A stretch of 64,000 nucleotides of DNA from Hyphomonadaceae bacterium (GCA_027485145.1 JAIXRO010000103.1:37244-101243); one strand, 5' to 3'. Numbered from the stretch's first letter, positions 1-10,759 are shown. The notes: a model not told the origin generated them from the sequence alone. Made by a program: numbers and translations.

Positions 1-258
1 GGCGCCGATGACGCCCATTTGCACGAAGTGGGAATACGTATCAATGAAGCCTGGGACGATAAGGTGGGGACGGTGATCCCTGACCGTCCAATGCCGGTAG
101 GCTTCCGGGAGGTCGTTGAGCGCGCCGCGCCAGACAATCTTTCCGTCACGCAGCGCGGCTGCGCCATTTTCCCAGTAGCCATAACTCGCTGTATCGTCGA
201 TTGCCTCGGGACGCTCGAAAAAAGTGAGCACGCGGCCGCGAAGCACCTGTCCGGTCAT
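1..258 (-). CDS. guaD: Guanine deaminase, 5' portion (runs off the left edge; not in the ORF track)
   Basis: Manual translation from ATG at 258: MTGQVLRGRVLTFFERPEAIDDTASYGYWENGA...RDHRPHLIVPGFIDTYSHFVQMGVIGA. This matches the alphaproteobacterial GuaD N-terminus (LRGR.L.F, DHRPHLI.PGFIDTH.H). Confidence 0.85.
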   Translation of the reverse strand, partial: MTGQVLRGRVLTFFERPEAIDDTASYGYWENGAAALRDGKIVWRGALNDLPEAYRHWTVRDHRPHLIVPGFIDTYSHFVQMGVIGA

Positions 259-579
259 GGGCGCCTCTGCTCCTCAAACCCGCCGCGCCGGATGCCTGCG
301 CGGGACGCGAACGGCAGCGCGCATCGGACCTTCAACGCGAGCGCCTCATTGTGTGTACCGACAGTCTGTCGCCGCGTTCAAGCCCTTAAGCGTTCCGGAA
401 CGCAGAGTGCCGAACAATTGCGCACCTTCGAGGGAGGCGGGCAAATCGCAAGCAGTCAGCGCTGGCCGTGACCCTCGATCGGGCAGGTCGAGCGTTCGCA
501 TTTCAAGATCGCCGCCCGCTCTTGATCGCATGCATGAGGGTGGCCAGACACATGGCAGACAATCGCAGAGGAAACAGGC

Positions 580-1743
580 ATGGCGCAGGCTGAGAAACCT
601 TCCAACCGGCGCAGGCGCTATCTTGAACGCGCCCTGCTCGGCGCCTCGGCGATGACGCTCGCCGCCTGCGCGGCCAACGGTCCTGCGCCCGGACAGCTTG
701 CGACGCCGGAAAAGGCGGCGGTGCACGATTGCCTGCCGGCCGGTCCCTGTTCTGCGCCGCTGCCGGTGAAAGCCGTACTTGTCACGATGTTCGAGATCGG
801 CGCCGACGAAGGCGACGCGCCGGGCGAATTCCAGTTATGGAAAGAGCGCCGCCCATTCGACACGCGATTTGCATTCCCGCATGCCCACCATGACCTCTTT
901 TATGACGAGACCTCCCAGACGCTCGCCGTCGTCACCGGAATCGGCACGGCCAAATCGGCCGCCGCCACGATGGCCTTGGGGCTCGACCAGCGGTTTGACC
1001 TCACCAAGGCTTACTGGTTGGTCGCGGGCATAGCTGGCATCGACCCGGAAGACGCCTCGATCGGTTCGGCGGTCTGGTCGGCTCACCTGGTGGACGGCGA
1101 TCTTGCACACGAAATCGACGCGCGGGAGAAACCCGATGACTGGCCGACTGGCTATTTTGCCCGCCGGACCAAGTTTCCCTATGATCCCGCAAAACCCGCC
1201 TCAACGGGCGAAGCCTTCGTAATCAACGAAGGGCTCGCCGAATGGGCCTTCACGCTGACGAAAGACACGGTGTTGCCCGACCTTCCGGGACTGGCCGAGA
1301 CACGTAATCTGTACACCGATCATGAGATGGCCCGCAGGCCGCCCTTCGTCTTGAAGGGCGGCCACCTTGCCGCCATGACGTTCTGGCACGGCAGCCTGTT
1401 GAACGAATGGGCAAACCGATGGGTCGATTACTGGACGGACGGCGCGGCTGGCTTCGTGACTTCCGCCATGGAAGATACCGGCACCTACCAGTCCATTCTT
1501 TACCTCGATGCCGCGGGCCGCGTGGACAAGGACCGGTTCATGGTCCTGCGCACCGGCAGCAACTACACGGTCCAGCCACCCGGCAAGACCGCAGCAGAGA
1601 ACCTGCTCGGCGAGAATGAAGGCTACGCGGGCATGCAAGCCTCACTGGAGTCGCTCTACCTTGTCGGATCCGTGGTGCTTGATGAGATCACAGGCAACTG
1701 GGATGTCTATGAGACCGAGGTGCCGGGCGCGCCGGCGGAGTGA
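580..1743 (+). CDS. Purine nucleoside permease (NUP family), probably an exported lipoprotein
   Basis: VKAVLVTMFEIG.DEGD.PGEFQ.W.ER, LVAGIAGIDP and TAMED-like motifs; Arg-rich N-terminus with lipobox-like LAAC. Confidence 0.85.
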   Translation: MAQAEKPSNRRRRYLERALLGASAMTLAACAANGPAPGQLATPEKAAVHDCLPAGPCSAPLPVKAVLVTMFEIGADEGDAPGEFQLWKERRPFDTRFAFPHAHHDLFYDETSQTLAVVTGIGTAKSAAATMALGLDQRFDLTKAYWLVAGIAGIDPEDASIGSAVWSAHLVDGDLAHEIDAREKPDDWPTGYFARRTKFPYDPAKPASTGEAFVINEGLAEWAFTLTKDTVLPDLPGLAETRNLYTDHEMARRPPFVLKGGHLAAMTFWHGSLLNEWANRWVDYWTDGAAGFVTSAMEDTGTYQSILYLDAAGRVDKDRFMVLRTGSNYTVQPPGKTAAENLLGENEGYAGMQASLESLYLVGSVVLDEITGNWDVYETEVPGAPAE

Positions 1744-1752
1744 GCCAGTCAG

Positions 1753-3315
1753 CTATCCGGGCGCAAGCCGCCAGTTCCGAATATCGCGCTCGAAGACATC
1801 GAACGCCTGTTCCTGTTTCAGCTGGAGCTGCGCCTTCGGGCTGGCGGCGACGAGCGCCTGGCAGGCGGGCGAAGCAAGCTTGCGGCAGGCCTTCTGGCGC
1901 TCGCCGACCTTCGCGTCCTGCCACAGGCTGGCGCCCGGGAGGAAGGCAAAATGCAGGCTGTTGCGGGCGGCCTCCTTCAAATCCAGGTAGCGCAGGCCAT
2001 GTTCATCGGCCGCGCGGACAAACTGTTCTGTCATGTCCGTCCGGAGCACGCCCTCGTCATCCGTAGACAGAACAAATGGCACACCCGATCGGCGGTAAAG
2101 GTTCAGCGGATGAAACCGGCCCTTTACGCCAAGGATTACGTCATTGCTGGAAAGGTTGATCTCGACGGCAATTTGCTCGCGCGCCATTCGCGCCAGCGTC
2201 TCGCGGCTGCCAAGCTCGAACGCTATGTCGACGCCGTGACCGATCCGCTGCGAGCCGGCGATGTCGATCGCATCTGCAATATGCCGGCGCATCGCATCGG
2301 CCGGCGCCAGACCGAGCGTCAGCTCCCCCGCGTGCAGGGAGATCCTCGCCGCCGGGTACTTGTCCGACAGGAATGCGATCATCCGCATATGGAGCGTGTA
2401 GTCAGCGATCGCTACCGGATCGTCTTCCGGCTGGACCAGCGATATGCCGACAAAACGGGGATCGGCCTCGATGAGCGCAAAGCTGAGCGCAAGTTGGCGG
2501 AAGAGTTGGTCGGTGGGGATGAGACGCAGGCCAAAGCCGTTATAGTAGACAACCACATCACAGCCCGGATCCGGCGCATCGGTATCGCATGCCAGCAGCC
2601 GGCGCGCTTCGGCTTCGGTCTCGTCGGTCTCCGCGATCGCTGCGGCGACAACCGCGCTGATCTCGGGCTGCAAGCGCGCGAAGGCGGCTTCGAAATCACC
2701 ATTCCAGGCCGGGTCGCGCGATGTCAGCGCCGAGATGTTGATCACACCCGGATTGTCCATGAGTTCCAGATACGACACCGCATCGCGCGCCGCCGCGCGC
2801 CTCGCAGACGCCTGAACACGCGCAGGCTCGTGTGCGGCGATGGCGCCGAACTTTTCGAACGACCGGAAAAACTGGTCATGCCCCGAAATACCCGTATCGA
2901 CCCCCGCGAGATGCTCGCGAACCGACATCGCATTGACGACACGTGCAAACAGACCGGGATCGGAACGCGCCAACCCCTGCGCCGGTAGTGTCTCAGGCGC
3001 CCGGCAAGGCGGCGCCACGACCGCGACGACGGCAACATCGATGCAGAACGCCGCTTCACTTGCCCATTCAAGGAAGGATTCCGCATAAGGTGTGCCTGCC
3101 GAATGGATGTGCAGGTCGCCCCCCTTGGGCATATCACGCAGGAACACCCTCAAGAGAACAGGATCGGCGGCGATCTCGTCAAACACCCTTGCCGCGTCGG
3201 CTTCGGGACTTGCCGACGCCGCAGGCGCGCCCATCCCGGCCAGAAGGAATAAGCTGAGGCCGGCAAGACTGCGTGGTATCAGTCGCTTGCCTTTGAACCG
3301 ACGGATCGCGATCAT
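1753..3315 (-). CDS. Adenosine deaminase family protein with signal peptide (start uncertain, 3315 or 3234)
   Basis: MPKGGDLHIH, LHAGE, RIGHG, VEINLSSN and LSTDD motifs. The track ORF's extension to 3888 overlaps the next gene and is not credible. Confidence 0.9.
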   Translation of the reverse strand: MIAIRRFKGKRLIPRSLAGLSLFLLAGMGAPAASASPEADAARVFDEIAADPVLLRVFLRDMPKGGDLHIHSAGTPYAESFLEWASEAAFCIDVAVVAVVAPPCRAPETLPAQGLARSDPGLFARVVNAMSVREHLAGVDTGISGHDQFFRSFEKFGAIAAHEPARVQASARRAAARDAVSYLELMDNPGVINISALTSRDPAWNGDFEAAFARLQPEISAVVAAAIAETDETEAEARRLLACDTDAPDPGCDVVVYYNGFGLRLIPTDQLFRQLALSFALIEADPRFVGISLVQPEDDPVAIADYTLHMRMIAFLSDKYPAARISLHAGELTLGLAPADAMRRHIADAIDIAGSQRIGHGVDIAFELGSRETLARMAREQIAVEINLSSNDVILGVKGRFHPLNLYRRSGVPFVLSTDDEGVLRTDMTEQFVRAADEHGLRYLDLKEAARNSLHFAFLPGASLWQDAKVGERQKACRKLASPACQALVAASPKAQLQLKQEQAFDVFERDIRNWRLAPG

Positions 3316-3364
3316 TTTGAGCCCCGGAGAGTATGCCTGCTTGCGGGCGCGACGCGCGCAAGGA

Positions 3365-4231
3365 TCAGCGGGCAGCGTTCTTGATGAAATCTTCGAGGTA
3401 GTCGCCCTCTTCGGGGTCCGGCGCGCCGGAATACCAGCCGCCCCGGATATGACGCCGGACGGACCGGTCTGCAGTGCCGGCCGCCGCCGAATGCCAGAGA
3501 TAGGCATCGTGGAACAGGACATCGCCGGCCTCGCAATAGACCGCGATCTCACCGGGCGCCTTCTCGAAGGCGAGCGGCATGTCATAGGGCGGAGGCTCGT
3601 CCGTATGGCCGCCCGCAGGGCGGGCATGCGCGGGAACCGGGACATTGTTTGCATTCTTCCACGGCGCCGGGGTCGCCCACTTGTGCGATCCCGGAACGAC
3701 ACGGAGAAACCCGTTCGCGGGGCTCGTGGCATCGATGTGGATCGTGAAGGCGACGGACGGCCAGACATCGCGGTGAGGACCGCTCTGCCAATCCGAATGC
3801 CAGCCGATGCGGCGGTACCCCGAGTTTTTGCCGCCGCGAGCATCCTGGTAGACGACCCCGAAGCGCGAACGCTCCAGCAAATATCCACCCGGCACCCATT
3901 TTTCCATCAGGCCGGAAATCGCCGGATGCAGGATGGCCTCGCGGGTGCGCGGCGAGATCTGGGTGATGTACTGGACATAGTTGGTGAACCGCTTTTCCTT
4001 GTCGACCTCATCATCGAGAAGAACGCTATTGCCGAACTTACTATCGAGTGTCCCGGCAATGACACCTTTCTGAGCGGCCACACATTGCGCCGTCATCGCA
4101 TCAAGCTCGGCGGGGGCATAAAGCCCCCGCAGGATGGCAAAGCCCCTTGCGCGGAAGAATTCCGACAGTCCTTCCAGCTGGTCCTGGCGGAAAACGCCGG
4201 CGTCCGGGTTGAGGCCGAGGCTTACACTCAT
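3365..4231 (-). CDS. Phytanoyl-CoA dioxygenase (PhyH)-family 2OG-Fe(II) oxygenase
   Basis: GFAILRGL, WHSD (HxD), IHIDAT...NGFLRVVPGSH, GDVLFH...WHS, distal R. Start taken at MSVSLG (4231). Confidence 0.85.
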   Translation of the reverse strand: MSVSLGLNPDAGVFRQDQLEGLSEFFRARGFAILRGLYAPAELDAMTAQCVAAQKGVIAGTLDSKFGNSVLLDDEVDKEKRFTNYVQYITQISPRTREAILHPAISGLMEKWVPGGYLLERSRFGVVYQDARGGKNSGYRRIGWHSDWQSGPHRDVWPSVAFTIHIDATSPANGFLRVVPGSHKWATPAPWKNANNVPVPAHARPAGGHTDEPPPYDMPLAFEKAPGEIAVYCEAGDVLFHDAYLWHSAAAGTADRSVRRHIRGGWYSGAPDPEEGDYLEDFIKNAAR

Positions 4232-4486
4232 TCGGATCGTCCTGCGCGAATGCTCTAATTTTGAGAGTGTTTGCTGTTCCCTATAGGGATGCGTCAACAC
4301 GGCCGGGACGACGGAGCGCTTGAATTGCGGAAGGTGCCAGCCGCTCTGGCGACACTGCATTGCACCGCCTAGAAACCGGGCAACAGGCGTTGGGCGAATG
4401 GACGATTGCGACAGGGCCCTTGAAGGCATCTGCGCCATGGGCGCAACCCAGACAGGTGCCCTAATTTTTCGAGTAGTCCGTCGCCG

Positions 4487-5776
4487 ATGATGCCCACAAC
4501 TGACAATTTCAGGAGCCTTTTCGGCGTCTTGCTCCTCCTTGGCCTTGCATGGCTTGCTTCGTCAGCGCGCTCCAAAGTGCCGGTGAGGACAGTCATCTCC
4601 GCGCTTGCCCTGCAAATTGCGGTCGCGGCGGTCATATTTGCGATCCCGCCGGTCCGCAACGCCATGTCAGGTATCTCGGAAGGGCTCAAGGCGCTGCAGG
4701 CGGCAACCGCCAAGGGCACCCAGTTTGTATTCGGTTACCTAGGCGGTGGCGGCACGCCCTTCGAAGTGGTGATGCCCGAAAACAACTTCATCCTGGCCTT
4801 CCAGATCCTGCCGCTGATGATTGTCATTTCTGCGCTGGCCGCCATGTTCTGGCATTGGGGCATCCTCGAGAAAATCTGCGAAGGTCTCGGATTCGTGATG
4901 CGCAAGACGCTGGGCCTCAGCGGGCCCGCGAGCCTCGGCGCGGCAGCCAGCGTCTTCCTTGGCATGGTCGAGGCACCCATGGTGGTACGTCCTTACCTCG
5001 AGCGGATGTCGCGCGCCGACATCTTCCTTCTGATGACTGCCGCCATGTCGACCGTCGCGGGCACGGTGATGGCGATCTACATCGCGCTCATGCAGCGCAC
5101 CGTGCCGGACGCGGCGGCGCATGTAATCGTTGCATCGTTCATGGCGGCGCCCGGAGCCGTCGCCATCGCTCGGATCATGCAGCCGCCGGAACCTGGAGAC
5201 ACGATCGAGACCGACAAGCCGCCGCCAAAATTCTACCAATCCACCATGGACGCGTTCACGCGCGGTGTTCAGGAAGGCGTGAATATCTTCATTTCAGTGC
5301 TGGCGACGGCGGTCGTGGCTGTCGCCTTCATTGCGATCCTCGACATGAGCCTCGACGCATTTGCACCGAATGTCGGCGGCGCGCCGATAACCATGAGCCG
5401 CATCTTCGGCTGGGTTCTGTCACCCCTGATGTACATGCTGGGCATTCCCTGGAAGGACGCTGCGCCGGCCGGAATGCTCCTTGGCACAAAGACGACACTG
5501 AACGAACTGATTGCCTTCATCTCCCTGTCCGAACTTCCCGCCGGCACCCTGGAGCCAAGAAGCCGCATGATGATGATCTACGTGCTCTGTGGGTTTGCGA
5601 ACTTTGGCGCAGTGGCGATCATGGTCAGCGGGCTTTCCGCCATGTGCCCGAGCCGCAGACCAGATTTCCTTGACCTCGGTCTAAAGAGCCTTGGGTCAGG
5701 CACCTTGACGAACTTGCTCAGCGCGACTTTGCTCGGTTGCGTGCCCTTTGCGCTGATCAGCAGCGCGGCCCCATGA
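4487..5776 (+). CDS. nupC: Concentrative nucleoside transporter (CNT/NupC family)
   Basis: FVFG, LAFQILPLMI, FLGMVEAP, MSTVAG, KTTLNEL and LCGFANFG motifs; multiple TM segments. Confidence 0.92.
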   Translation: MMPTTDNFRSLFGVLLLLGLAWLASSARSKVPVRTVISALALQIAVAAVIFAIPPVRNAMSGISEGLKALQAATAKGTQFVFGYLGGGGTPFEVVMPENNFILAFQILPLMIVISALAAMFWHWGILEKICEGLGFVMRKTLGLSGPASLGAAASVFLGMVEAPMVVRPYLERMSRADIFLLMTAAMSTVAGTVMAIYIALMQRTVPDAAAHVIVASFMAAPGAVAIARIMQPPEPGDTIETDKPPPKFYQSTMDAFTRGVQEGVNIFISVLATAVVAVAFIAILDMSLDAFAPNVGGAPITMSRIFGWVLSPLMYMLGIPWKDAAPAGMLLGTKTTLNELIAFISLSELPAGTLEPRSRMMMIYVLCGFANFGAVAIMVSGLSAMCPSRRPDFLDLGLKSLGSGTLTNLLSATLLGCVPFALISSAAP

Positions 5777-7422
5777 CGGAGATGGCAAAAGTGGAACGCC
5801 GCGGCATATTCCGTCTACTGACTACAATCACGCTACTGTCACTTGTCCTTTCGGCCTGCGCGGGAGTGGCGCCAAGTGTCCCCTCGCAAGAGCCGCGACC
5901 ACTGGCTGTCACCGCATATGGCGCGGTGCGCGGCAGGATGGACGACGGCGTCTCGGTCTTCCTCGGCATACCTTACGGCGCTGACACTGCCGCCCGGCGC
6001 TTCCAGCGGGCGGTCCCGCCGGAAGCCTGGGACGGTATCCGCGAAGCGATCACCTATCCCGATACCAGTCCTCAACTTGAGTTGTCGGGCGCCCTCTTTG
6101 AATCATGGGATCCGGACCCGCGTCCACCCCAGGGCGAGAACATGCTGGGTTTGAATGTCTGGACCCCGGCACTCGACGACGCGCGGCGTCCGGTCATGGT
6201 CTGGCTCCACGGCGGCGGATATACCGCCGGCTATGGATCAAGCCGGGTGTTCGAAGGCACACGGCTGGCTCAAAAAGGCGATGTGGTCGTGGTGACGGTC
6301 AACCACCGTCTGAACCTTCTGGGCTATCTCTATCTGGCAGGTCTTCCCGGCGGAGAGGCCTATCCAGACAGTGGCAATGTCGGGATGCTGGATCTCATTC
6401 TGGCCCTTGAATGGGTGCGCGACAACATTGCCGCATTTGGCGGAGATCCGGACAATGTCACCATATTCGGGGAATCCGGGGGTGGCTGGAAAGTCAGCAC
6501 CCTGCTCGCCATGCCCGAAGCTGAAGGCCTTATCGACCGCGCCATAGTGCAGAGCGGATCGGCGCGTTATGCGCGCACGCCAGAACAAGCGACGGCAGAT
6601 GCCCGCATGGCGCTGGACGCGCTTGGCGTCGCGCCAGAAAATCTGGATGCGCTTCGCACCCTCCCGGCCCAGAGTTTCACAGACGCAATGACGGCGCTGG
6701 AGACCAATCCCCGGCTCGCGCCCAACTTTTTCTCGCCGGTGGCCGACGGCCGCGCGCTTCCTTCGCACCCGTTCGGAGACGCTGCGCCGGCAACAGCGCG
6801 GGACGTCCCCATGCTCATCGGAAGCACAGCCGATGAATACAGCCTGTTCTTGCTGGGCATTCCGGATCCAGCGGCAATCACGTTCGAAGCCCTGCACGAC
6901 ATGCTCGCCTTTGCGGTTCCGGAACCCGACATCCCGGCCGTTGTGGCGGGCTACCGCGCCCTGCAACCCGATGCGAGCCCCTACGAGATTCTGGTGGCCA
7001 TTGCGTCCGACCGTGCCTTTACGGCCGACGCCGTTGCCCAGGCAGAACTGAAAGCTGAACAGGGCGGTGCGCCGGTATGGCTCTATCAGTTTGACTGGGA
7101 AACCCCGCTGATGGGCGGTCGCCTTGGCGCGATGCACGCGCTTGAGACTGGATTCGTGTTCGACAATCTCCAGAAGTCAGAATCGATGATCGGCGATATC
7201 GCGACCGCGCAGCCCCTCGCCGACAAGATGAGCGATGCCTGGCTCGCGTTTGCCCGGACGGGCAATCCCAACGTATCCGGACTTCCGCCTTGGCCCGCCC
7301 TGACCCCCGGCAGCGTCAGCGCCATGCGCTTCAGCGAGGTCTCCAGGGTGGAAGCGGACTACTTTGCAGCGGAAGGCGAAATCCTGAACGCGCTACCGAA
7401 CATGTGGCAACTGGGGCGTTAA
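5773..7422 (+). CDS. Type-B carboxylesterase, lipoprotein-like N-terminus
   Basis: FLGIPYG, LNVWTP, VMVWLHGGG, NVTIFGESGG (nucleophile Ser) and GAMHALE motifs; ATGA coupling with the nupC stop; LSAC lipobox-like motif. Confidence 0.92.
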   Translation: MTEMAKVERRGIFRLLTTITLLSLVLSACAGVAPSVPSQEPRPLAVTAYGAVRGRMDDGVSVFLGIPYGADTAARRFQRAVPPEAWDGIREAITYPDTSPQLELSGALFESWDPDPRPPQGENMLGLNVWTPALDDARRPVMVWLHGGGYTAGYGSSRVFEGTRLAQKGDVVVVTVNHRLNLLGYLYLAGLPGGEAYPDSGNVGMLDLILALEWVRDNIAAFGGDPDNVTIFGESGGGWKVSTLLAMPEAEGLIDRAIVQSGSARYARTPEQATADARMALDALGVAPENLDALRTLPAQSFTDAMTALETNPRLAPNFFSPVADGRALPSHPFGDAAPATARDVPMLIGSTADEYSLFLLGIPDPAAITFEALHDMLAFAVPEPDIPAVVAGYRALQPDASPYEILVAIASDRAFTADAVAQAELKAEQGGAPVWLYQFDWETPLMGGRLGAMHALETGFVFDNLQKSESMIGDIATAQPLADKMSDAWLAFARTGNPNVSGLPPWPALTPGSVSAMRFSEVSRVEADYFAAEGEILNALPNMWQLGR

Positions 7423-7489
7423 GGCGGACGGTGTGAGGGATGCGAAAGAGGTGATATGAAGATATCTGGAACAGCAGAGCAAAGGTGGA

Positions 7490-7690
7490 ATAGCTGACGG
7501 CTTTACCCCCAAGCAGAAAGCGCCGCTGATCGACACGTTCGGCCGGCAAGTCACCTACTTGCGCCTGTCAGTCACGGACCGCTGCGATCTGCGGTGCAGT
7601 TGCTGCAAGTCAGAGCCCATGGAATTCCAGCCTGAGCAGGACCTCCTCACACTTGAGGAACTGGACATGGTCGCCGCCGCTTTGATCCGG
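7490..7690 (+). pseudogene. moaA: N-terminal fragment of GTP 3',8-cyclase MoaA
   Basis: [27 protein letters not shown]...LLTLEELD with radical-SAM CxxxCxxC. No in-frame start, and homology ends after about 65 codons. Confidence 0.85.
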
Positions 7691-7701
7691 CATTGCTTGC
7701 C

Positions 7702-7930
7702 GGATTCGAGGCTGCAGCGCCTTTTTCCGGAGCCGTTGTAAGCTTCTGCGGCAAGGTGCGCCCAGATGACGCTGGCAACAAGGTTCAGCGGCTACACCTT
7801 CAGGCCTGCGGTCCGACGACGGAGCAAGGCATTGCGCAGACGGTCGCACGAGCCCGGGATAGATGGCCGCTTCAAGCCGCGACCGTCGTGCATAGGATCG
7901 GGGATATACAGCCTTCGGAAACCATCGGGT
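7702..7930 (+). pseudogene. moaE: Internal fragment of molybdopterin synthase large subunit MoaE
   Basis: [11 protein letters not shown]...LHLQ...ARDRWPLQAATVVHRIGDIQPSETI matches the MoaE core; N- and C-termini are missing. Confidence 0.8.
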
Positions 7931-7948
7931 TCCGGCCGTGGATACCAA

Positions 7949-8902
7949 TCACCGGCCAGACATAGGCGACGTATAGTTGGGATCGTGCGCGATTGGCGGC
8001 GCACCTCCAGACCGCAGCGCGTCCAGCACGTCTTCAAATCGGGTCTGGTAGACGAAGCCGAGCTCTCGCTCAATCAACGAGCCATCATACACCCGGCCGA
8101 TGGAAGCCGGGAGTTTCCATCCCTTGTCCGCATACAGACCATCGGCATCAGGGAAACGATCCAGGATCACTGACCTTGCATCGGACTTCAAACTTCTGAC
8201 GTCGTCACGCGTGAACGGCGTCGGCGCGGAGACAAGGTAGAGTCCAAAGCCAATACGGGGCGCCGCTTCGATTGCAGCGATGTGCGCTCTTGCCATGTCC
8301 TCTACCGTTGCCCGGCGGTGCAGCAGTTCGTTCGCCTTCATGTTTGGCCCTGTGAGGTCAGCGTGCGTGTCATCCTCCTCGGGAAAGAAACGCGACGTCC
8401 GGAGCAGAACGACAGGTATGCCGCTTTCCAGATGACTTTGACGACAAAGACCCTCCGCGGCGAGTTTCGTGACACCGTAGATGTTCCGCGGCTCCAAAGG
8501 CCCGGCGGCTTCATCGAGCCAGGCCGCCTCACTCGACCGCTCGTTCCTGATCGCCTCGCTGATCATCAGCGATGTCGTTGACGTGAAGACGAACGGCGTG
8601 CCCGGCCTGGCCGAAGCGGCTTCGAGCAAGTTCAGCGTACCTGTGACATTGACGTCCACAAATGATTGTTTCGGGAAGCGCGCAATGTCCGGCTTGTGAA
8701 GAGCGCCGGCATGGACGACCGCATCGAACGCATTGTCGGAGAACAACGTGTCAATCGCTTTGCGATCAGCCACATTGCAGACCGCGTCGGTCCACACGCT
8801 TGGCACGACGTCCAGCCCGAAAGGGTGATAGCCCCGTTCCCTCAGCATAGGAACAAGGTGCCGCCCAAGCCAGCCCGAAGAGCCCGTGACCAGAATCCGC
8901 AT
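7949..8902 (-). CDS. NAD-dependent epimerase/dehydratase (extended SDR)
   Basis: MRILVTGSSGWLG, VVHAGALHKP, VNVTGTLNLL and YGVTK motifs. Confidence 0.9.
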   Translation of the reverse strand: MRILVTGSSGWLGRHLVPMLRERGYHPFGLDVVPSVWTDAVCNVADRKAIDTLFSDNAFDAVVHAGALHKPDIARFPKQSFVDVNVTGTLNLLEAASARPGTPFVFTSTTSLMISEAIRNERSSEAAWLDEAAGPLEPRNIYGVTKLAAEGLCRQSHLESGIPVVLLRTSRFFPEEDDTHADLTGPNMKANELLHRRATVEDMARAHIAAIEAAPRIGFGLYLVSAPTPFTRDDVRSLKSDARSVILDRFPDADGLYADKGWKLPASIGRVYDGSLIERELGFVYQTRFEDVLDALRSGGAPPIAHDPNYTSPMSGR

Positions 8903-9159
8903 CATCCGCACAATTCATTCTCATCTTCACACGAGCGCGTGTTAGCAGACCCTTCGCGCGAGAGACAAGAAACAGGGAGCGGCACGAATCGGCGACGTGA
9001 GAGCGGCACTCGCCGACCTTTGCGTGGGAAGTGGAGCCTCTCGACCAGATCCGACCTGGCGCGACGATCAAAGATCGTTCCGGAGCCCCAACCGGCGCCA
9101 CCCGTGACGCAAGGGCTCTATTGTGTGTTTCTGCGAAGGCCCTGGCGCCTTGTATTGAA

Positions 9160-9204
9160 TGGTGCACCCGAAGAGATTCGAACTCCTGACCCCCAGATTC
9201 GTAG
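9160..9204 (-). mobile_element. att site: duplicated 3' half of tRNA-Arg(ACG), island boundary
   Basis: Minus strand reads CTACGAATCTGGGGGTCAGGAGTTCGAATCTCTTCGGGTGCACCA: anticodon loop ACG, T-arm GTTCGAAT, CCA end. The 5' half is absent and an integrase lies about 220 bp away. Confidence 0.88.
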
Positions 9205-9346
9205 ACATTCCCACGGAATCTGGCGAGGTCGGTTATGGTCGGCCTAAGTCGTGTTTTATTGTTTATTTTCATGGACTTAAAGGCACCTTTCAAACATTAC
9301 AAAACAGACATAAACAGACCAAAACCGACCATTTCCGGTGCTCAAC

Positions 9347-9365
9347 TGGGGCACTGGTGGGGCAC
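9347..9365 (+). repeat. Direct repeat TGGGGCAC x2 (11-bp period), candidate integrase arm-binding sites
   Basis: Copies at 9347-9354 and 9358-9365, between the att core and the int start. Confidence 0.5.
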
Positions 9366-9424
9366 AGAAACTATGCTAGTATCCACAGTCTAAACAACAT
9401 TTGTGTGGAAATAGGAATTTCTTC

Positions 9425-10759
9425 ATGCCCCGGAAAGACCCTTCACGATCGGAGCAAACGCTCACAATTGCGCCCAGTCAAGCCACCCGCTCGAAGCAAA
9501 GCAGGCAAGGAACACGGCTCACTCAGCGCCTCGCAAGTGAAGCCAAGAAGAGCGGTGTGAAGCAGCGCATCGCAGATCATGAGGTGAAGGGTCTCTTCCT
9601 TCGGATCACGCCTACCGGCGCCAAAAGTTATGTCCTGCGCTATTCCCAAGAGGGCCGGCGCGGCGAAGCGGCAATTGGCGATGCGACGGCCATTACCCTG
9701 GTCGCCGCGCGAGCCAAGGCAATGGATCTGCTCAACTCACTGACGCTGCAGGGGATTGATCCGGTCCAGGCGAAGCAAGCGGCCATTGTCGCCGAACGCC
9801 AGCGAAAGAATGCCTCGTTCGCTGCCCTGACAGAAGCCTACTCCAAGGATGCTGCGCGCCGAAAACGGCCGAGGACGCTTGAGTATGAGGCCTGGCTTCT
9901 GGAGAAGCACATCCTGCCGAAGCTGGGCCAACGTCCGTATGCAGAACTGCGCCGCTCGGAGATCATCGCGTTCATTGAAGCGATCGGCGATAACACTGGA
10001 CAGGTTACCGCCAACCGGGCTCATGCGGTCATCCGTCAGATTCTGAACTATGCTTTGAAGCGCGATCTCATAGGTGCCAATCCGGCTCTCGGCATTGAGC
10101 GGATGTTTCCGGAAGTCTCCCGTGAGCGGATTCTCAATGAGAGCGAGATCCGCAAACTCTGGTCTTTTCTGGAGGCAGCCCGGGCCAATAGCGGTAAAGG
10201 TTTGGCGCCCGGGCAGCGGCTGGGCGAGCGGCCTGTCAACATCGTCTCTCCAGCGGTCGCAACGGCGCTGCAACTCTGCCTTCTGACATTGCAGCGCAGC
10301 GGCGAAGTCGCAGGCGCCCGGATCGAAGAATTCAGCTGGAAGGACCGGCTCTGGATCATCCCCGCCGATCGCATGAAGGGCAAACGCGCCCATGCCGTGC
10401 CGCTATCCGGTCTGGCCATGGAGCGCTTCCAATCCGCTTTCAAACTGGCCGGGGGAGATATCGCATTCAAGGACCGCTCGGGCGAATCCAGTGTCGATCC
10501 GAAACGCCTTACGCGCGCCATGAACCGCTGCTGCACGCACCTCGGACTCCTCAATGCGGGGCCACACGATCTGCGCCGCACGGGCCGCACGATGATGACC
10601 AGTGAAGAGGTCGGCGTGTCCTATGAAGTTGCCGAGCGGGTGATTGCCCATCTCTTCGGCTCAGCGGTAAGCCGGGTCTATGACCGCAACGAGTATCTCC
10701 GCGAAAAGCGCGCCGCGCTGGATCGCTGGGAAGAGGTCCTCCTCAAGATCGTAGGGTGA
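9425..10759 (+). CDS. Tyrosine recombinase/integrase with N-terminal arm-binding domain (P4-like)
   Basis: GLFLRITPTGAKSYVLRY arm domain; catalytic LQRSGEV (R), HDLRRT (H..R), IAH, and VYDRNEY (Y). Confidence 0.95.
   Translation: MPRKDPSRSEQTLTIAPSQATRSKQSRQGTRLTQRLASEAKKSGVKQRIADHEVKGLFLRITPTGAKSYVLRYSQEGRRGEAAIGDATAITLVAARAKAMDLLNSLTLQGIDPVQAKQAAIVAERQRKNASFAALTEAYSKDAARRKRPRTLEYEAWLLEKHILPKLGQRPYAELRRSEIIAFIEAIGDNTGQVTANRAHAVIRQILNYALKRDLIGANPALGIERMFPEVSRERILNESEIRKLWSFLEAARANSGKGLAPGQRLGERPVNIVSPAVATALQLCLLTLQRSGEVAGARIEEFSWKDRLWIIPADRMKGKRAHAVPLSGLAMERFQSAFKLAGGDIAFKDRSGESSVDPKRLTRAMNRCCTHLGLLNAGPHDLRRTGRTMMTSEEVGVSYEVAERVIAHLFGSAVSRVYDRNEYLREKRAALDRWEEVLLKIVG

What the first reader, a model, noticed from the sequence alone, without database searches (positions are those of the whole stretch)
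1..7930. Purine cluster with a PhyH-type oxygenase beside decayed Moco genes: possible molybdenum-independent purine oxidation
Seen: guaD, NUP, adenosine deaminase, CNT and an intact PhyH-family 2OG-Fe(II) oxygenase co-oriented with the deaminase, then moaA/moaE remnants about 1.7 kb after nupC. Established: GuaD and Ada feed xanthine/hypoxanthine, which bacteria normally oxidise with Moco-dependent xanthine dehydrogenase. Fungi have a Moco-free 2OG-dependent alternative (XanA, TauD family). Inference: this PhyH enzyme could be an unrecognised bacterial xanthine/hypoxanthine hydroxylase, or could act on modified nucleosides (demethylation or hydroxylation) during salvage.
Basis: partly seen in the sequence, partly recalled or inferred. 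Interest (0 to 1): 0.75.

Follow-up and report, generated by a model that had tools for sequence, protein, structure and literature searches.

The report
PhyH oxygenase in purine-nucleoside island
An intact iron/2-oxoglutarate oxygenase sits beside a nucleoside importer in a purine-utilisation island, but the genome keeps a complete molybdenum-dependent xanthine dehydrogenase, so it is not a molybdenum-free substitute and more likely processes unusual nucleosides.

Summary
The guaD start, NUP, a secreted ADA2-like deaminase, an intact PhyH-family oxygenase (3365-4231, minus), nupC and a moaA'/'moaE remnant (7526-7926) are all present.

- xdhA, xdhB and xdhC are intact 9-15 kb upstream on the same contig, inside a complete purine-to-allantoate cluster.
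- An intact moaA-moaE-moaB-moaC-moeA operon lies on contig C7.
- Among 41 genomes of the genus, true xdhB, this PhyH and the cluster-type nupC were found only in the same two. The correlation is positive, not negative.

The remnant is the decayed copy of a Moco operon that is intact at the same position in the sister genome.

The oxygenase belongs to a tight, uncharacterised clade (50-87% identity between Alphaproteobacteria and Actinobacteria).
- It lies within 7 kb of nupC in 22 of 22 alphaproteobacterial loci.
- It recurs beside adenosine and guanine deaminases, XDH or Rieske oxygenases, and NMT1-type ABC transporters.

Best reading: it oxidises imported non-canonical purine nucleosides. 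2'-O-demethylation is the only published precedent for this Pfam family (PF05721). However, the clade is not the FJS/PHYHD1 lineage, and the substrate is unproven.

Interest is moderate.

The parts
1..258 (-). 5' part of guaD (guanine deaminase); the gene continues upstream of the window and is intact
   Evidence: NF006679 positions 2-87. The upstream part, L010:18898-19944, scores 530 bits against a cut-off of 351.
580..1743 (+). NUP-family (PF06516) protein with a lipoprotein-type signal, so probably exported
   Evidence: PF06516, 352 bits. The N-terminus carries an RRRR...LAAC lipobox. It is conserved next to the ADA2-like gene in 7 related loci.
1753..3315 (-). Secreted ADA2/ADGF-like adenosine deaminase, 520 aa (P0005), probably co-transcribed with PhyH
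   Evidence: It has a signal peptide ending AASA and an LHIH metal motif. A_deaminase matches only the C-terminal half. It follows PhyH in 8 related loci.
3365..4231 (-). Intact PhyH-superfamily Fe(II)/2-oxoglutarate dioxygenase, 288 aa (P0004), with no signal peptide
   Evidence: PF05721, 65.7 bits against 22. H145, D147, H247, R259, R260 and R263 are invariant. The AF2 model has pLDDT 85 and a PhyH-like fold. A Shine-Dalgarno-like AGGA lies 7 nt before ATG 4231.
4232..4486 (.). Divergent intergenic region shared by PhyH and nupC, with two copies of a CTC-AAAA-TTAG-GCA motif (4473-4457 and 4266-4251)
   Evidence: The motif pair is conserved in L018, L019 and L020. The gap length of 228-255 bp is conserved in the Hyphomonas/Henriciella group.
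4487..5776 (+). Cluster-specific NupC/CNT nucleoside importer; a second, housekeeping paralogue lies on contig C212
   Evidence: Pfam Nucleos_tra2_N, Gate and Nucleos_tra2_C, and TIGR00804. Only G000 and G028 carry this copy (90% identity). All 41 genomes of the genus have a roughly 41%-identical paralogue.
5737..7422 (+). Exported carboxylesterase; no evident link to purines
   Evidence: PF00135, 304 bits. It has a lipoprotein-type signal. It is syntenic in L018 only.
7526..7705 (+). moaA remnant (first ~62 codons, including the CxxxCxxC radical-SAM motif)
   Evidence: TIGR02666 positions 1-62 of 336, 60.9 bits against a cut-off of 284. Read directly. It is 64% identical to the intact syntenic moaA of L018.
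7717..7926 (+). moaE remnant (profile positions 17-87 of 114), in a different frame from the moaA piece and cut off by the next gene
   Evidence: PF02391, 62 bits. It is 58% identical to the intact moaE of L018. In L018 about 1.1 kb lies between the matching points of moaA and moaE, including the gap where moaD would lie, and this stretch is missing here.
7949..8911 (-). SDR-family NAD-dependent epimerase/dehydratase, occupying the place of moaE 3'-moaB-moaC-moeA in the sister genome
   Evidence: PF01370. It has no counterpart in L018.

Best explanation
The gene at 3365-4231 (minus) encodes a cytoplasmic Fe(II)/2-oxoglutarate dioxygenase of a tight, uncharacterised clade of the PhyH superfamily. 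It belongs to an accessory purine-nucleoside utilisation island.

The proposed pathway has three stages:
1. Outside the cytoplasm: a TonB-dependent receptor takes nucleosides in, and exported MTAN-like, NUP-like and ADA2-like proteins work on them.
2. Across the inner membrane: a dedicated NupC importer, expressed from a shared divergent promoter region with the oxygenase.
3. In the cytoplasm: PhyH, GuaD, a LOG-type nucleotide hydrolase, Moco-dependent XdhABC, a flavin urate hydroxylase candidate and the allantoin branch.

The oxygenase most likely converts imported non-canonical purine nucleosides into canonical ones that the deaminases and nucleosidases can use. The leading specific reaction is hydroxylation of a methyl group followed by loss of formaldehyde, as in 2'-O-demethylation of Am, Gm or Im. 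A C-H hydroxylation of the sugar is the second option.

It does not replace xanthine dehydrogenase. The moaA'/'moaE piece is the wreck of an island-borne Moco operon. A second intact Moco operon on contig C7 makes that copy dispensable.

Shown: gene content, intactness, synteny and phyletic pattern. Inferred: substrate class, reaction and co-regulation.
For: Catalytic integrity:
- The HxD...H triad and the RRHxR motif are invariant in 46 homologues.
- The model has a PhyH-like fold with pLDDT 85.
- There is no signal peptide.

Linkage to nucleoside and purine genes:
- nupC lies within 7 kb in 22 of 22 alphaproteobacterial loci and is divergently adjacent in 20, across at least four different neighbourhood types.
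- L038 reads deoB-deoC-aldh-PhyH, followed by ADA, guaD and xdhCBA.
- L039 carries nupC, PhyH, ADA, guaD and xdhCBA.
- L077 reads xdh-guaD-PhyH on one strand.
- Of 58 actinobacterial loci, 7 carry ADA, 4 a guaD-like gene, 4 an xdh-like gene and 9 an NMT1-type ABC transporter. L099 reads phosphoribosyltransferase-PhyH-NMT1 ABC-urease.

Phyletic pattern:
- In the genus, PhyH, the cluster-type nupC and true xdhB were found only in G000 and G028.
- G066 has nupC-PhyH but no xdhB and no OHCU decarboxylase. The pair is therefore kept without purine oxidation, which fits a salvage-level role.

The core pathway is complete without PhyH:
- Xanthine permease, xdhABC, a PF13454 flavoprotein between HIU hydrolase and OHCU decarboxylase, PuuE and allantoate amidohydrolase are all present.

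Precedent:
- Bacterial and animal PF05721 enzymes demethylate free 2'-O-methyl nucleosides but not nucleotides (PMC12709175).
- N6-methyl purines are handled hydrolytically by adenosine deaminase in E. coli (abstract of PMC13296781). That leaves ribose methylation as the block needing an oxygenase.
Against: - No substrate was tested.
- The clade is not the FJS/PHYHD1 lineage. A profile of the family finds no PHYHD1 chain at E <= 0.01. PHYHD1 ranks 49th by Foldseek, at 15% identity and TM 0.57, no closer than proline, ectoine or anthracycline enzymes. The sequence around the iron-binding HxD differs from the FJS-like proteins printed in the paper's supplement.
- About 34 of the 58 actinobacterial loci show no purine gene nearby. 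Their neighbours include a suf operon, EccA, an MFS transporter, a SnoaL-like protein and an AMP-ligase.
- NMT1-type ABC transporters, Rieske oxygenases and a phosphoribosyltransferase as neighbours point to a free base rather than a nucleoside.
- Related loci are not independent, so counts overstate the support.
Confidence: 0.5

Rival explanations
1. The enzyme is a purine-base hydroxylase working beside XDH, not instead of it. Possible reactions are C8 or C2 hydroxylation of guanine, adenine, hypoxanthine or a methylxanthine, feeding a deaminase or urate. This is analogous in logic to fungal XanA and to the unproven dioxygenases of the xanthine-riboswitch regulon.
For: - Actinobacterial loci place it with NMT1-type ABC transporters, Rieske VanA-like oxygenases and guanine-deaminase-like amidohydrolases. 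PMC7373994 reports the same gene mix around xanthine riboswitches and predicts purine substrates.
- A phosphoribosyltransferase lies directly upstream in L099.
- L077 reads xdh-guaD-PhyH on one strand.
Against: - The riboswitch-linked 2OG enzymes are of the pcbC/DIOX_N type, not PhyH.
- nupC, a nucleoside carrier rather than a base carrier, is the only universal neighbour in Alphaproteobacteria.
- G066 keeps nupC-PhyH without xdhB or OHCU decarboxylase.
- In the XDH-free genome G069, the oxygenase inside the urate cluster is a Rieske protein, and PhyH lies about 950 kb away.
- No riboswitch was found in window 1-10000.
Confidence: 0.13
2. One reading: in this genome the PhyH enzyme substitutes for a lost Moco-dependent xanthine dehydrogenase.
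For: - moaA and moaE next to the cluster are truly decayed.
- No PuuD or cofactor-free uricase was found in the genome.
Against: - xdhA scores 592 bits (cut-off 467), xdhB 1248 (849.5) and xdhC 261 (161.6), all without stops, on the same contig.
- On C7, moaA, moaB and moaC score above their cut-offs, and moaE and moeA are intact.
- C7 has a G+C content like the window's contig, and its MoaA has 64-76% identical homologues in 12 genomes of the genus.
- PhyH and xdhB co-occur in the genus.
Confidence: 0.03
3. The function is unrelated to purines. The oxygenase acts on some other small molecule (an amino-acid derivative, compatible solute, lipid or secondary metabolite), and its place beside nupC is inherited synteny without functional meaning.
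For: - More than half of the actinobacterial loci show no purine gene within 8 kb.
- The closest structures act on proline, ectoine, anthracycline sugars and indole alkaloids.
- No curated NCBIfam model matches.
Against: - Purine or nucleoside neighbours recur in two phyla in different arrangements: nupC, ADA, guaD, xdh, deoBC and a phosphoribosyltransferase.
- In the Hyphomonas genus the gene travels only with the purine island.
- 50-87% identity across phyla suggests one conserved, common substrate.
Confidence: 0.2

Closest known systems
FJS / PHYHD1 2'-O-methyl nucleoside demethylases (PF05721; PMC12709175)
   Same: Same Pfam family and fold. It has the HxD...H iron triad, is about 285 aa and is cytoplasmic. 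The context implies free nucleosides as substrates, which is what FJS and PHYHD1 use.
   Different: It is a different clade. PHYHD1 is not retrieved by a family profile and is no closer structurally than other PhyH enzymes (15% identity). The sequence around the iron-binding HxD differs. The activity is untested. No genomic-context analysis was found by term search in that paper.
XanA, the fungal Fe(II)/2OG xanthine hydroxylase
   Same: It is a 2OG oxygenase associated with purine catabolism.
   Different: It belongs to a different family (TauD, not PhyH). XanA substitutes for XDH, whereas this gene co-occurs with intact xdhABC.
Dioxygenases of the xanthine (NMT1-motif) riboswitch regulon, and HpxDE of Klebsiella (PMC7373994)
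   Same: The neighbourhood vocabulary matches several actinobacterial loci: NMT1/THI5-like binding protein, TauA-type ABC transporter, Rieske oxygenase and guanine-deaminase-like amidohydrolases.
   Different: Those 2OG enzymes are pcbC/DIOX_N-type. No riboswitch is present here. Their substrates are also unproven.
Structurally characterised PhyH-like enzymes (EctD, SnoK/SnoN, AviO1, FtmOx1, proline hydroxylase H11, human PHYH)
   Same: It shares the double-stranded beta-helix fold, with TM 0.55-0.62.
   Different: Identity is 13-20%. There is a family-specific insertion around residues 185-228, and the C-terminus is invariant, ending in KNAAR.

Membership tests
PhyH superfamily Fe(II)/2OG dioxygenase (PF05721) | Profile match above the curated threshold | tested here: met
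   65.7 bits against a gathering score of 22, profile positions 1-209 of 213.
PhyH superfamily Fe(II)/2OG dioxygenase (PF05721) | HxD...H iron-binding triad and a basic residue for the 2OG C5 carboxylate | tested here: met
   H145, D147 and H247 are invariant, and so are R259, R260 and R263, in 46 sequences. Assigning the Arg to 2OG binding is an inference.
PhyH superfamily Fe(II)/2OG dioxygenase (PF05721) | Double-stranded beta-helix fold | tested here: met
   The AF2 model has pLDDT 85 and pTM 0.88. Foldseek probability is 1.00 to many PhyH-like structures.
FJS/PHYHD1 2'-O-methyl nucleoside demethylases | Sequence or structural grouping with FJS or PHYHD1 rather than with other PhyH enzymes | tested here: not met
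   There is no PHYHD1 hit at E <= 0.01 with the family profile. PHYHD1 (2opw) ranks 49th, TM 0.57, 15% identity. No proper tree including FJS could be built.
FJS/PHYHD1 2'-O-methyl nucleoside demethylases | 2OG-dependent release of formaldehyde from 2'-O-methyl nucleosides | not testable with these tools
   This needs an enzyme assay.
XanA-type Moco-independent xanthine hydroxylase | TauD-family membership, and presence in place of XDH | tested here: not met
   Only PF05721 matches. xdhABC is intact on the same contig. PhyH co-occurs with xdhB in the genus.
Xanthine dehydrogenase XdhABC (genome, outside the window) | All three subunits or accessory proteins above equivalog cut-offs, with open frames | tested here: met
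   TIGR02963 scores 592 (cut-off 467), TIGR02965 1248 (849.5) and TIGR02964 261 (161.6), with no stops.
Functional moaA / moaE at 7526-7926 | Full-length match to the family profile in one open frame | tested here: not met
   moaA covers positions 1-62 of 336 and moaE positions 17-87 of 114, in different frames. The intact syntenic operon is in L018.

The most novel reading that the evidence does not exclude
This PhyH clade could be a purine-acting hydroxylase, giving some bacteria a step of purine or deoxynucleoside catabolism that no known enzyme class covers. Two candidate reactions are Moco-independent C8/C2 hydroxylation of a purine base and 2'-hydroxylation of purine deoxynucleosides. 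My evidence excludes a replacement role in this genome, but not such a chemistry in the clade as a whole. Carriers with no xdhB hit at E <= 1e-40 exist (G066, G069), and G069 has no XDH-family protein at all.
Probability: 0.1. Interest if true: 0.8.

Novelty: new variant of a known kind. Interest (0 to 1): 0.4.

Why it matters
The attractive claim, that a bacterium oxidises purines without molybdenum, does not hold here. That saves a wasted assay campaign.

What remains is useful:
- The clade of 2OG oxygenases is sharply delimited. At least 245 genomic loci encode it, members are at least 50% identical across two phyla, and none has been characterised.
- Its only constant neighbour in Alphaproteobacteria is a dedicated nucleoside importer, and it travels with purine-catabolic islands.
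- The catabolism of modified nucleosides released from RNA turnover is largely unmapped in bacteria. The first PhyH-type 2'-O-methyl nucleoside demethylase was reported only in late 2025.
- This clade is a well-defined, cheaply testable candidate for a further step of that metabolism, in marine and freshwater heterotrophs that live on dissolved nucleosides.

The locus also shows a purine island that carried its own Moco operon and lost it where a second copy exists.

Tried and rejected
- PhyH as the missing urate oxidase. PuuD (PF06181) and uricase (PF01014) were not found in the genome. I rejected the idea for three reasons: a PF13454 flavin monooxygenase lies between HIU hydrolase and OHCU decarboxylase; nupC is the constant neighbour; and G066 keeps the pair without OHCU decarboxylase.
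- A riboswitch in the cluster. Rfam at E <= 1 on window 1-10000 gave only two chance-level hits.
- A close solved relative. The PDB profile search gave only marginal hits (SnoK, MysH, EctD; E about 0.007-0.01). Foldseek gave generic PhyH-fold hits.
- An FJS-like paralogue in the genome. A motif scan for WH[QR]DS found nothing. The two other PF05721 genes (C173, C215) look different. This is weak evidence only.
- A direct comparison with the FJS sequence. I did not do it, because it would have meant typing a long sequence.
- NCBIfam has no model for the protein.
- Within-genus synteny of PhyH was uninformative beyond one sister genome.
- Searches failed on term or coordinate slips and were repeated correctly.
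- My simple GC3-based gene caller mis-called some very high-GC loci, so I checked that region with the ORF listing.


Full report
**What is in the window**

The window is G000:C197:37244-101243. The closest relative among the fetched loci is a Hyphomonas MAG.

Mechanical ORF listing, Pfam and NCBIfam scans give these genes:
- the first 86 codons of guaD, at 1-258 (minus);
- a NUP-family gene, at 580-1743 (+);
- a 520-aa adenosine-deaminase-family gene, at 1753-3315 (minus);
- a PhyH-family gene, at 3365-4231 (minus);
- nupC, at 4487-5776 (+);
- a carboxylesterase, at 5737-7422 (+);
- an SDR epimerase, at 7949-8911 (minus).

The deaminase has a Sec signal peptide and an LHIH metal motif. Only its C-terminal half matches A_deaminase, and it hits the ADGF subfamily weakly. 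I read it as a secreted ADA2-like enzyme.

PhyH starts at ATG 4231, behind an AGGA. The deaminase follows 50 bp later, and no terminator-like site lies between them.

Between the esterase and the epimerase, two frames read as MoaA residues 1-62, with the CxxxCxxC motif, and MoaE profile positions 17-87. They lie 11 nt apart and out of frame.

**The replacement argument fails**

Both exist.

xdh:
- A search of the genome for the XDH Mo-binding domain found an 810-codon open frame 11 kb upstream on the same contig.
- Annotation of that stretch gives xdhA at 592 bits (cut-off 467), xdhB at 1248 bits (849.5) and xdhC at 261 bits (161.6), together with the rest of guaD.

The rest of the pathway, further upstream:
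- a xanthine/uracil permease;
- HIU hydrolase;
- a PF13454 flavin monooxygenase, which I take as the urate hydroxylase candidate (inference);
- OHCU decarboxylase, HpxZ and PuuE allantoinase;
- allantoate amidohydrolase, a GGT and an AtzE-type amidase.

The route from xanthine to allantoate and beyond is thus complete without PhyH.

Moco genes:
- Contig C7 carries moaA (358 bits, cut-off 284), a moaD-sized gap, moaE, moaB (262, cut-off 222), moaC (208, cut-off 162) and moeA. They sit beside another Mo-enzyme and a MocA/XdhC-like protein.
- C7 has a G+C content like C197, 0.613 against 0.606.
- Its MoaA has 64-76% identical homologues in 12 genomes of the genus. I therefore take C7 as belonging to this organism.

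**What the Moco remnant is**

In the sister MAG (L018, which is G028), the carboxylesterase is followed by an intact moaA-moaE-moaB-moaC-moeA operon, in the same order and orientation as the remnant. The remnant is 58-64% identical to those genes.

The window's genome therefore lost about 1.1 kb between moaA codon ~62 and moaE codon ~17. It also lost everything from the moaE 3' end to moeA, where the SDR gene now lies.

I did not test that.

The island-borne Moco operon decayed where a second copy exists. This is redundancy loss, not loss of Moco.

**Phyletic pattern in the genus**

| Feature | Genomes carrying it |
|---|---|
| This PhyH (87% identity) | G000 and G028 only, among G000 and 36 sampled same-genus genomes |
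| xdhB above cut-off | G000 and G028 only, of 41 |
| Cluster-type nupC (90% identity) | G000 and G028 only; all 41 have a ~41%-identical housekeeping paralogue |

The whole purine island is accessory, and PhyH correlates positively with XDH.

**The PhyH family**

- The large protein search returns a compact family, 56-82% identical among the best 120 hits. It comes from Hyphomonadaceae, other Alphaproteobacteria and many Actinobacteria. All are annotated only as 'phytanoyl-CoA dioxygenase family' or 'ectoine hydroxylase-related'.
- Among 1.84 billion 50%-identity representatives, only 30 score below 1e-30, and many of those are fragments. The next full-length relatives are about 30% identical.
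- H145, D147, H247, R259, R260, R263 and the C-terminal KNAAR are invariant.
- The AF2 model (pLDDT 85) is a PhyH-type beta-helix.
- It is equally distant (TM 0.55-0.62, 13-20% identity) from proline hydroxylase H11, SnoK/SnoN, AviO1, FtmOx1, EctD, PHYH and PHYHD1.
- A family profile finds nothing convincing in the PDB.

**Genomic context elsewhere**

A scan of one genome per species found 245 loci, and I analysed the 80 best.

*Alphaproteobacteria.* nupC lies within 7 kb in all 22 loci and is divergently adjacent in 20. The gap is a conserved 141-255 bp. At least four neighbourhood types occur:
- The Hyphomonas/Henriciella/Ponticaulis type adds the ADA2-like gene, NUP, guaD, a LOG-family gene, an MTAN-like lipoprotein and a TonB receptor.
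- A second Hyphomonadaceae type has only nupC-PhyH among unrelated genes.
- L038 reads deoB-deoC-aldehyde dehydrogenase-PhyH, then ADA, guaD and xdhCBA.
- L039 carries nupC, a transaldolase-family gene, PhyH, ADA, guaD and xdhCBA.

*Actinobacteria* (58 loci):
- 7 loci have ADA, 4 a guaD-like amidohydrolase, 4 an XDH-like gene, 9 an NMT1-type ABC transporter and 5 a Rieske VanA-like oxygenase.
- L077 reads xdh-guaD-PhyH on one strand.
- L099 reads phosphoribosyltransferase-PhyH-NMT1 ABC-urease.
- About 34 loci show no purine gene nearby (suf genes, EccA, MFS, SnoaL). 10 sit next to purL.

Loci from related genomes are not independent, so these counts are descriptive only.

**Carriers without XDH**

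- Of five carriers checked, two have true xdhB.
- G066 has nupC-PhyH but neither xdhB nor OHCU decarboxylase. A xanthine hydroxylase would have no downstream pathway there.
- G069 is a complete Aquihabitans genome with no XDH-family protein at all, yet it has a urate cluster.
- In that cluster, a Rieske/VanA_C oxygenase lies next to an FAD monooxygenase, OHCU decarboxylase and a PuuE-like gene.
- That Rieske protein is 32% identical to the one that neighbours PhyH in L073.
- The PhyH of G069 lies about 950 kb away.

PhyH thus keeps company with whichever purine-oxidising system is present, and it is not the candidate substitute. That the Rieske proteins are HpxD analogues is an inference from PMC7373994.

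**Literature**

- PMC12709175 (2025) shows that the metagenomic bacterial PF05721 enzyme FJS, several bacterial homologues and PHYHD1 demethylate free 2'-O-methyl nucleosides, releasing formaldehyde. They do not act on nucleotides. Term searches of that paper found no discussion of operons or genomic context. The FJS-like sequences printed in its supplement differ from this clade around the iron-binding HxD motif.
- The abstract of PMC13296781 indicates that E. coli uses adenosine deaminase, not an oxygenase, for N6-methyl purines.
- PMC7373994 describes xanthine-riboswitch operons that combine NMT1-type transporters, Rieske and pcbC-type 2OG dioxygenases and deaminases. It predicts, without proof, purine substrates. 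No such riboswitch is present here.

**Conclusion**

The most economical reading is a cytoplasmic oxygenase that makes imported, non-canonical purine nucleosides usable. 2'-O-demethylation is the leading specific guess, because it is the only demonstrated nucleoside chemistry in this Pfam family, and because a ribose methyl is a block that deaminases do not remove.

My confidence estimates:
- about 0.9 that it is not a Moco-free XDH substitute in this genome;
- about 0.75 that it works in nucleoside or purine metabolism;
- about 0.5 that the substrate is a nucleoside;
- about 0.25-0.3 that the reaction is 2'-O-demethylation.

It is a distinct, untested clade, so I class it as a new variant of a known kind, of moderate interest.

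Noticed in passing
window 4473-4457 and 4266-4251: Two copies of a CTC-AAAA-TTAG-GCA motif lie on the same strand, one close to the nupC start and one about 20 nt before the PhyH start. The pair is conserved in L018, L019 and L020 but not in the other Hyphomonadaceae group. It may be an operator pair for a shared regulator.
   Followed up: partly
G000:C197:~11500-43000 (L105, L010, window 1-5776): A roughly 30-kb purine-utilisation supercluster runs from HIU hydrolase to nupC. It includes HpxZ, a GGT and an AtzE-type amidase (an oxalurate/oxamate branch), and several exported lipoproteins (MTAN-like with an extra ~270-aa C-terminal domain, and NUP). Its key markers (xdhB, PhyH and the cluster-type nupC) were found in only 2 of the genomes sampled in the genus.
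   Followed up: partly
L105:12814-14241 (G000:C197:12814-14241, minus): A PF13454 flavin monooxygenase lies between HIU hydrolase and OHCU decarboxylase in a genome with no PuuD or uricase hit. It is probably an HpyO-type urate hydroxylase, but no curated NCBIfam model names it.
   Followed up: partly
L109:12782-13765 (Aquihabitans sp. G128): A complete genome with no XDH-family (MoCoBD_1) protein carries a urate-degradation cluster with an adjacent Rieske/VanA_C oxygenase. This is a candidate Moco-independent hypoxanthine/xanthine hydroxylase of the HpxD kind in Actinobacteria.
   Followed up: partly
L098:2072-8852 (Acidimicrobiales MAG): Here PhyH overlaps the stop of a VanA_C-type oxygenase gene. 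It sits with two amidohydrolases, a P450, a second VanA_C protein and a LacI regulator. This looks like a pathway for a methylated or otherwise substituted heterocycle.
   Followed up: no
genus-wide: MoaA was found in only 16 of 41 sampled genomes of the genus. Molybdenum cofactor synthesis is therefore itself an accessory trait here, and in the sister genome G028 the only copy found lies on the same contig as PhyH, beside the cluster.
   Followed up: partly
window 7949-9204: The SDR epimerase gene replaces the moaE 3'-moaB-moaC-moeA stretch of the sister genome. The deletion may be linked to that insertion.
   Followed up: no
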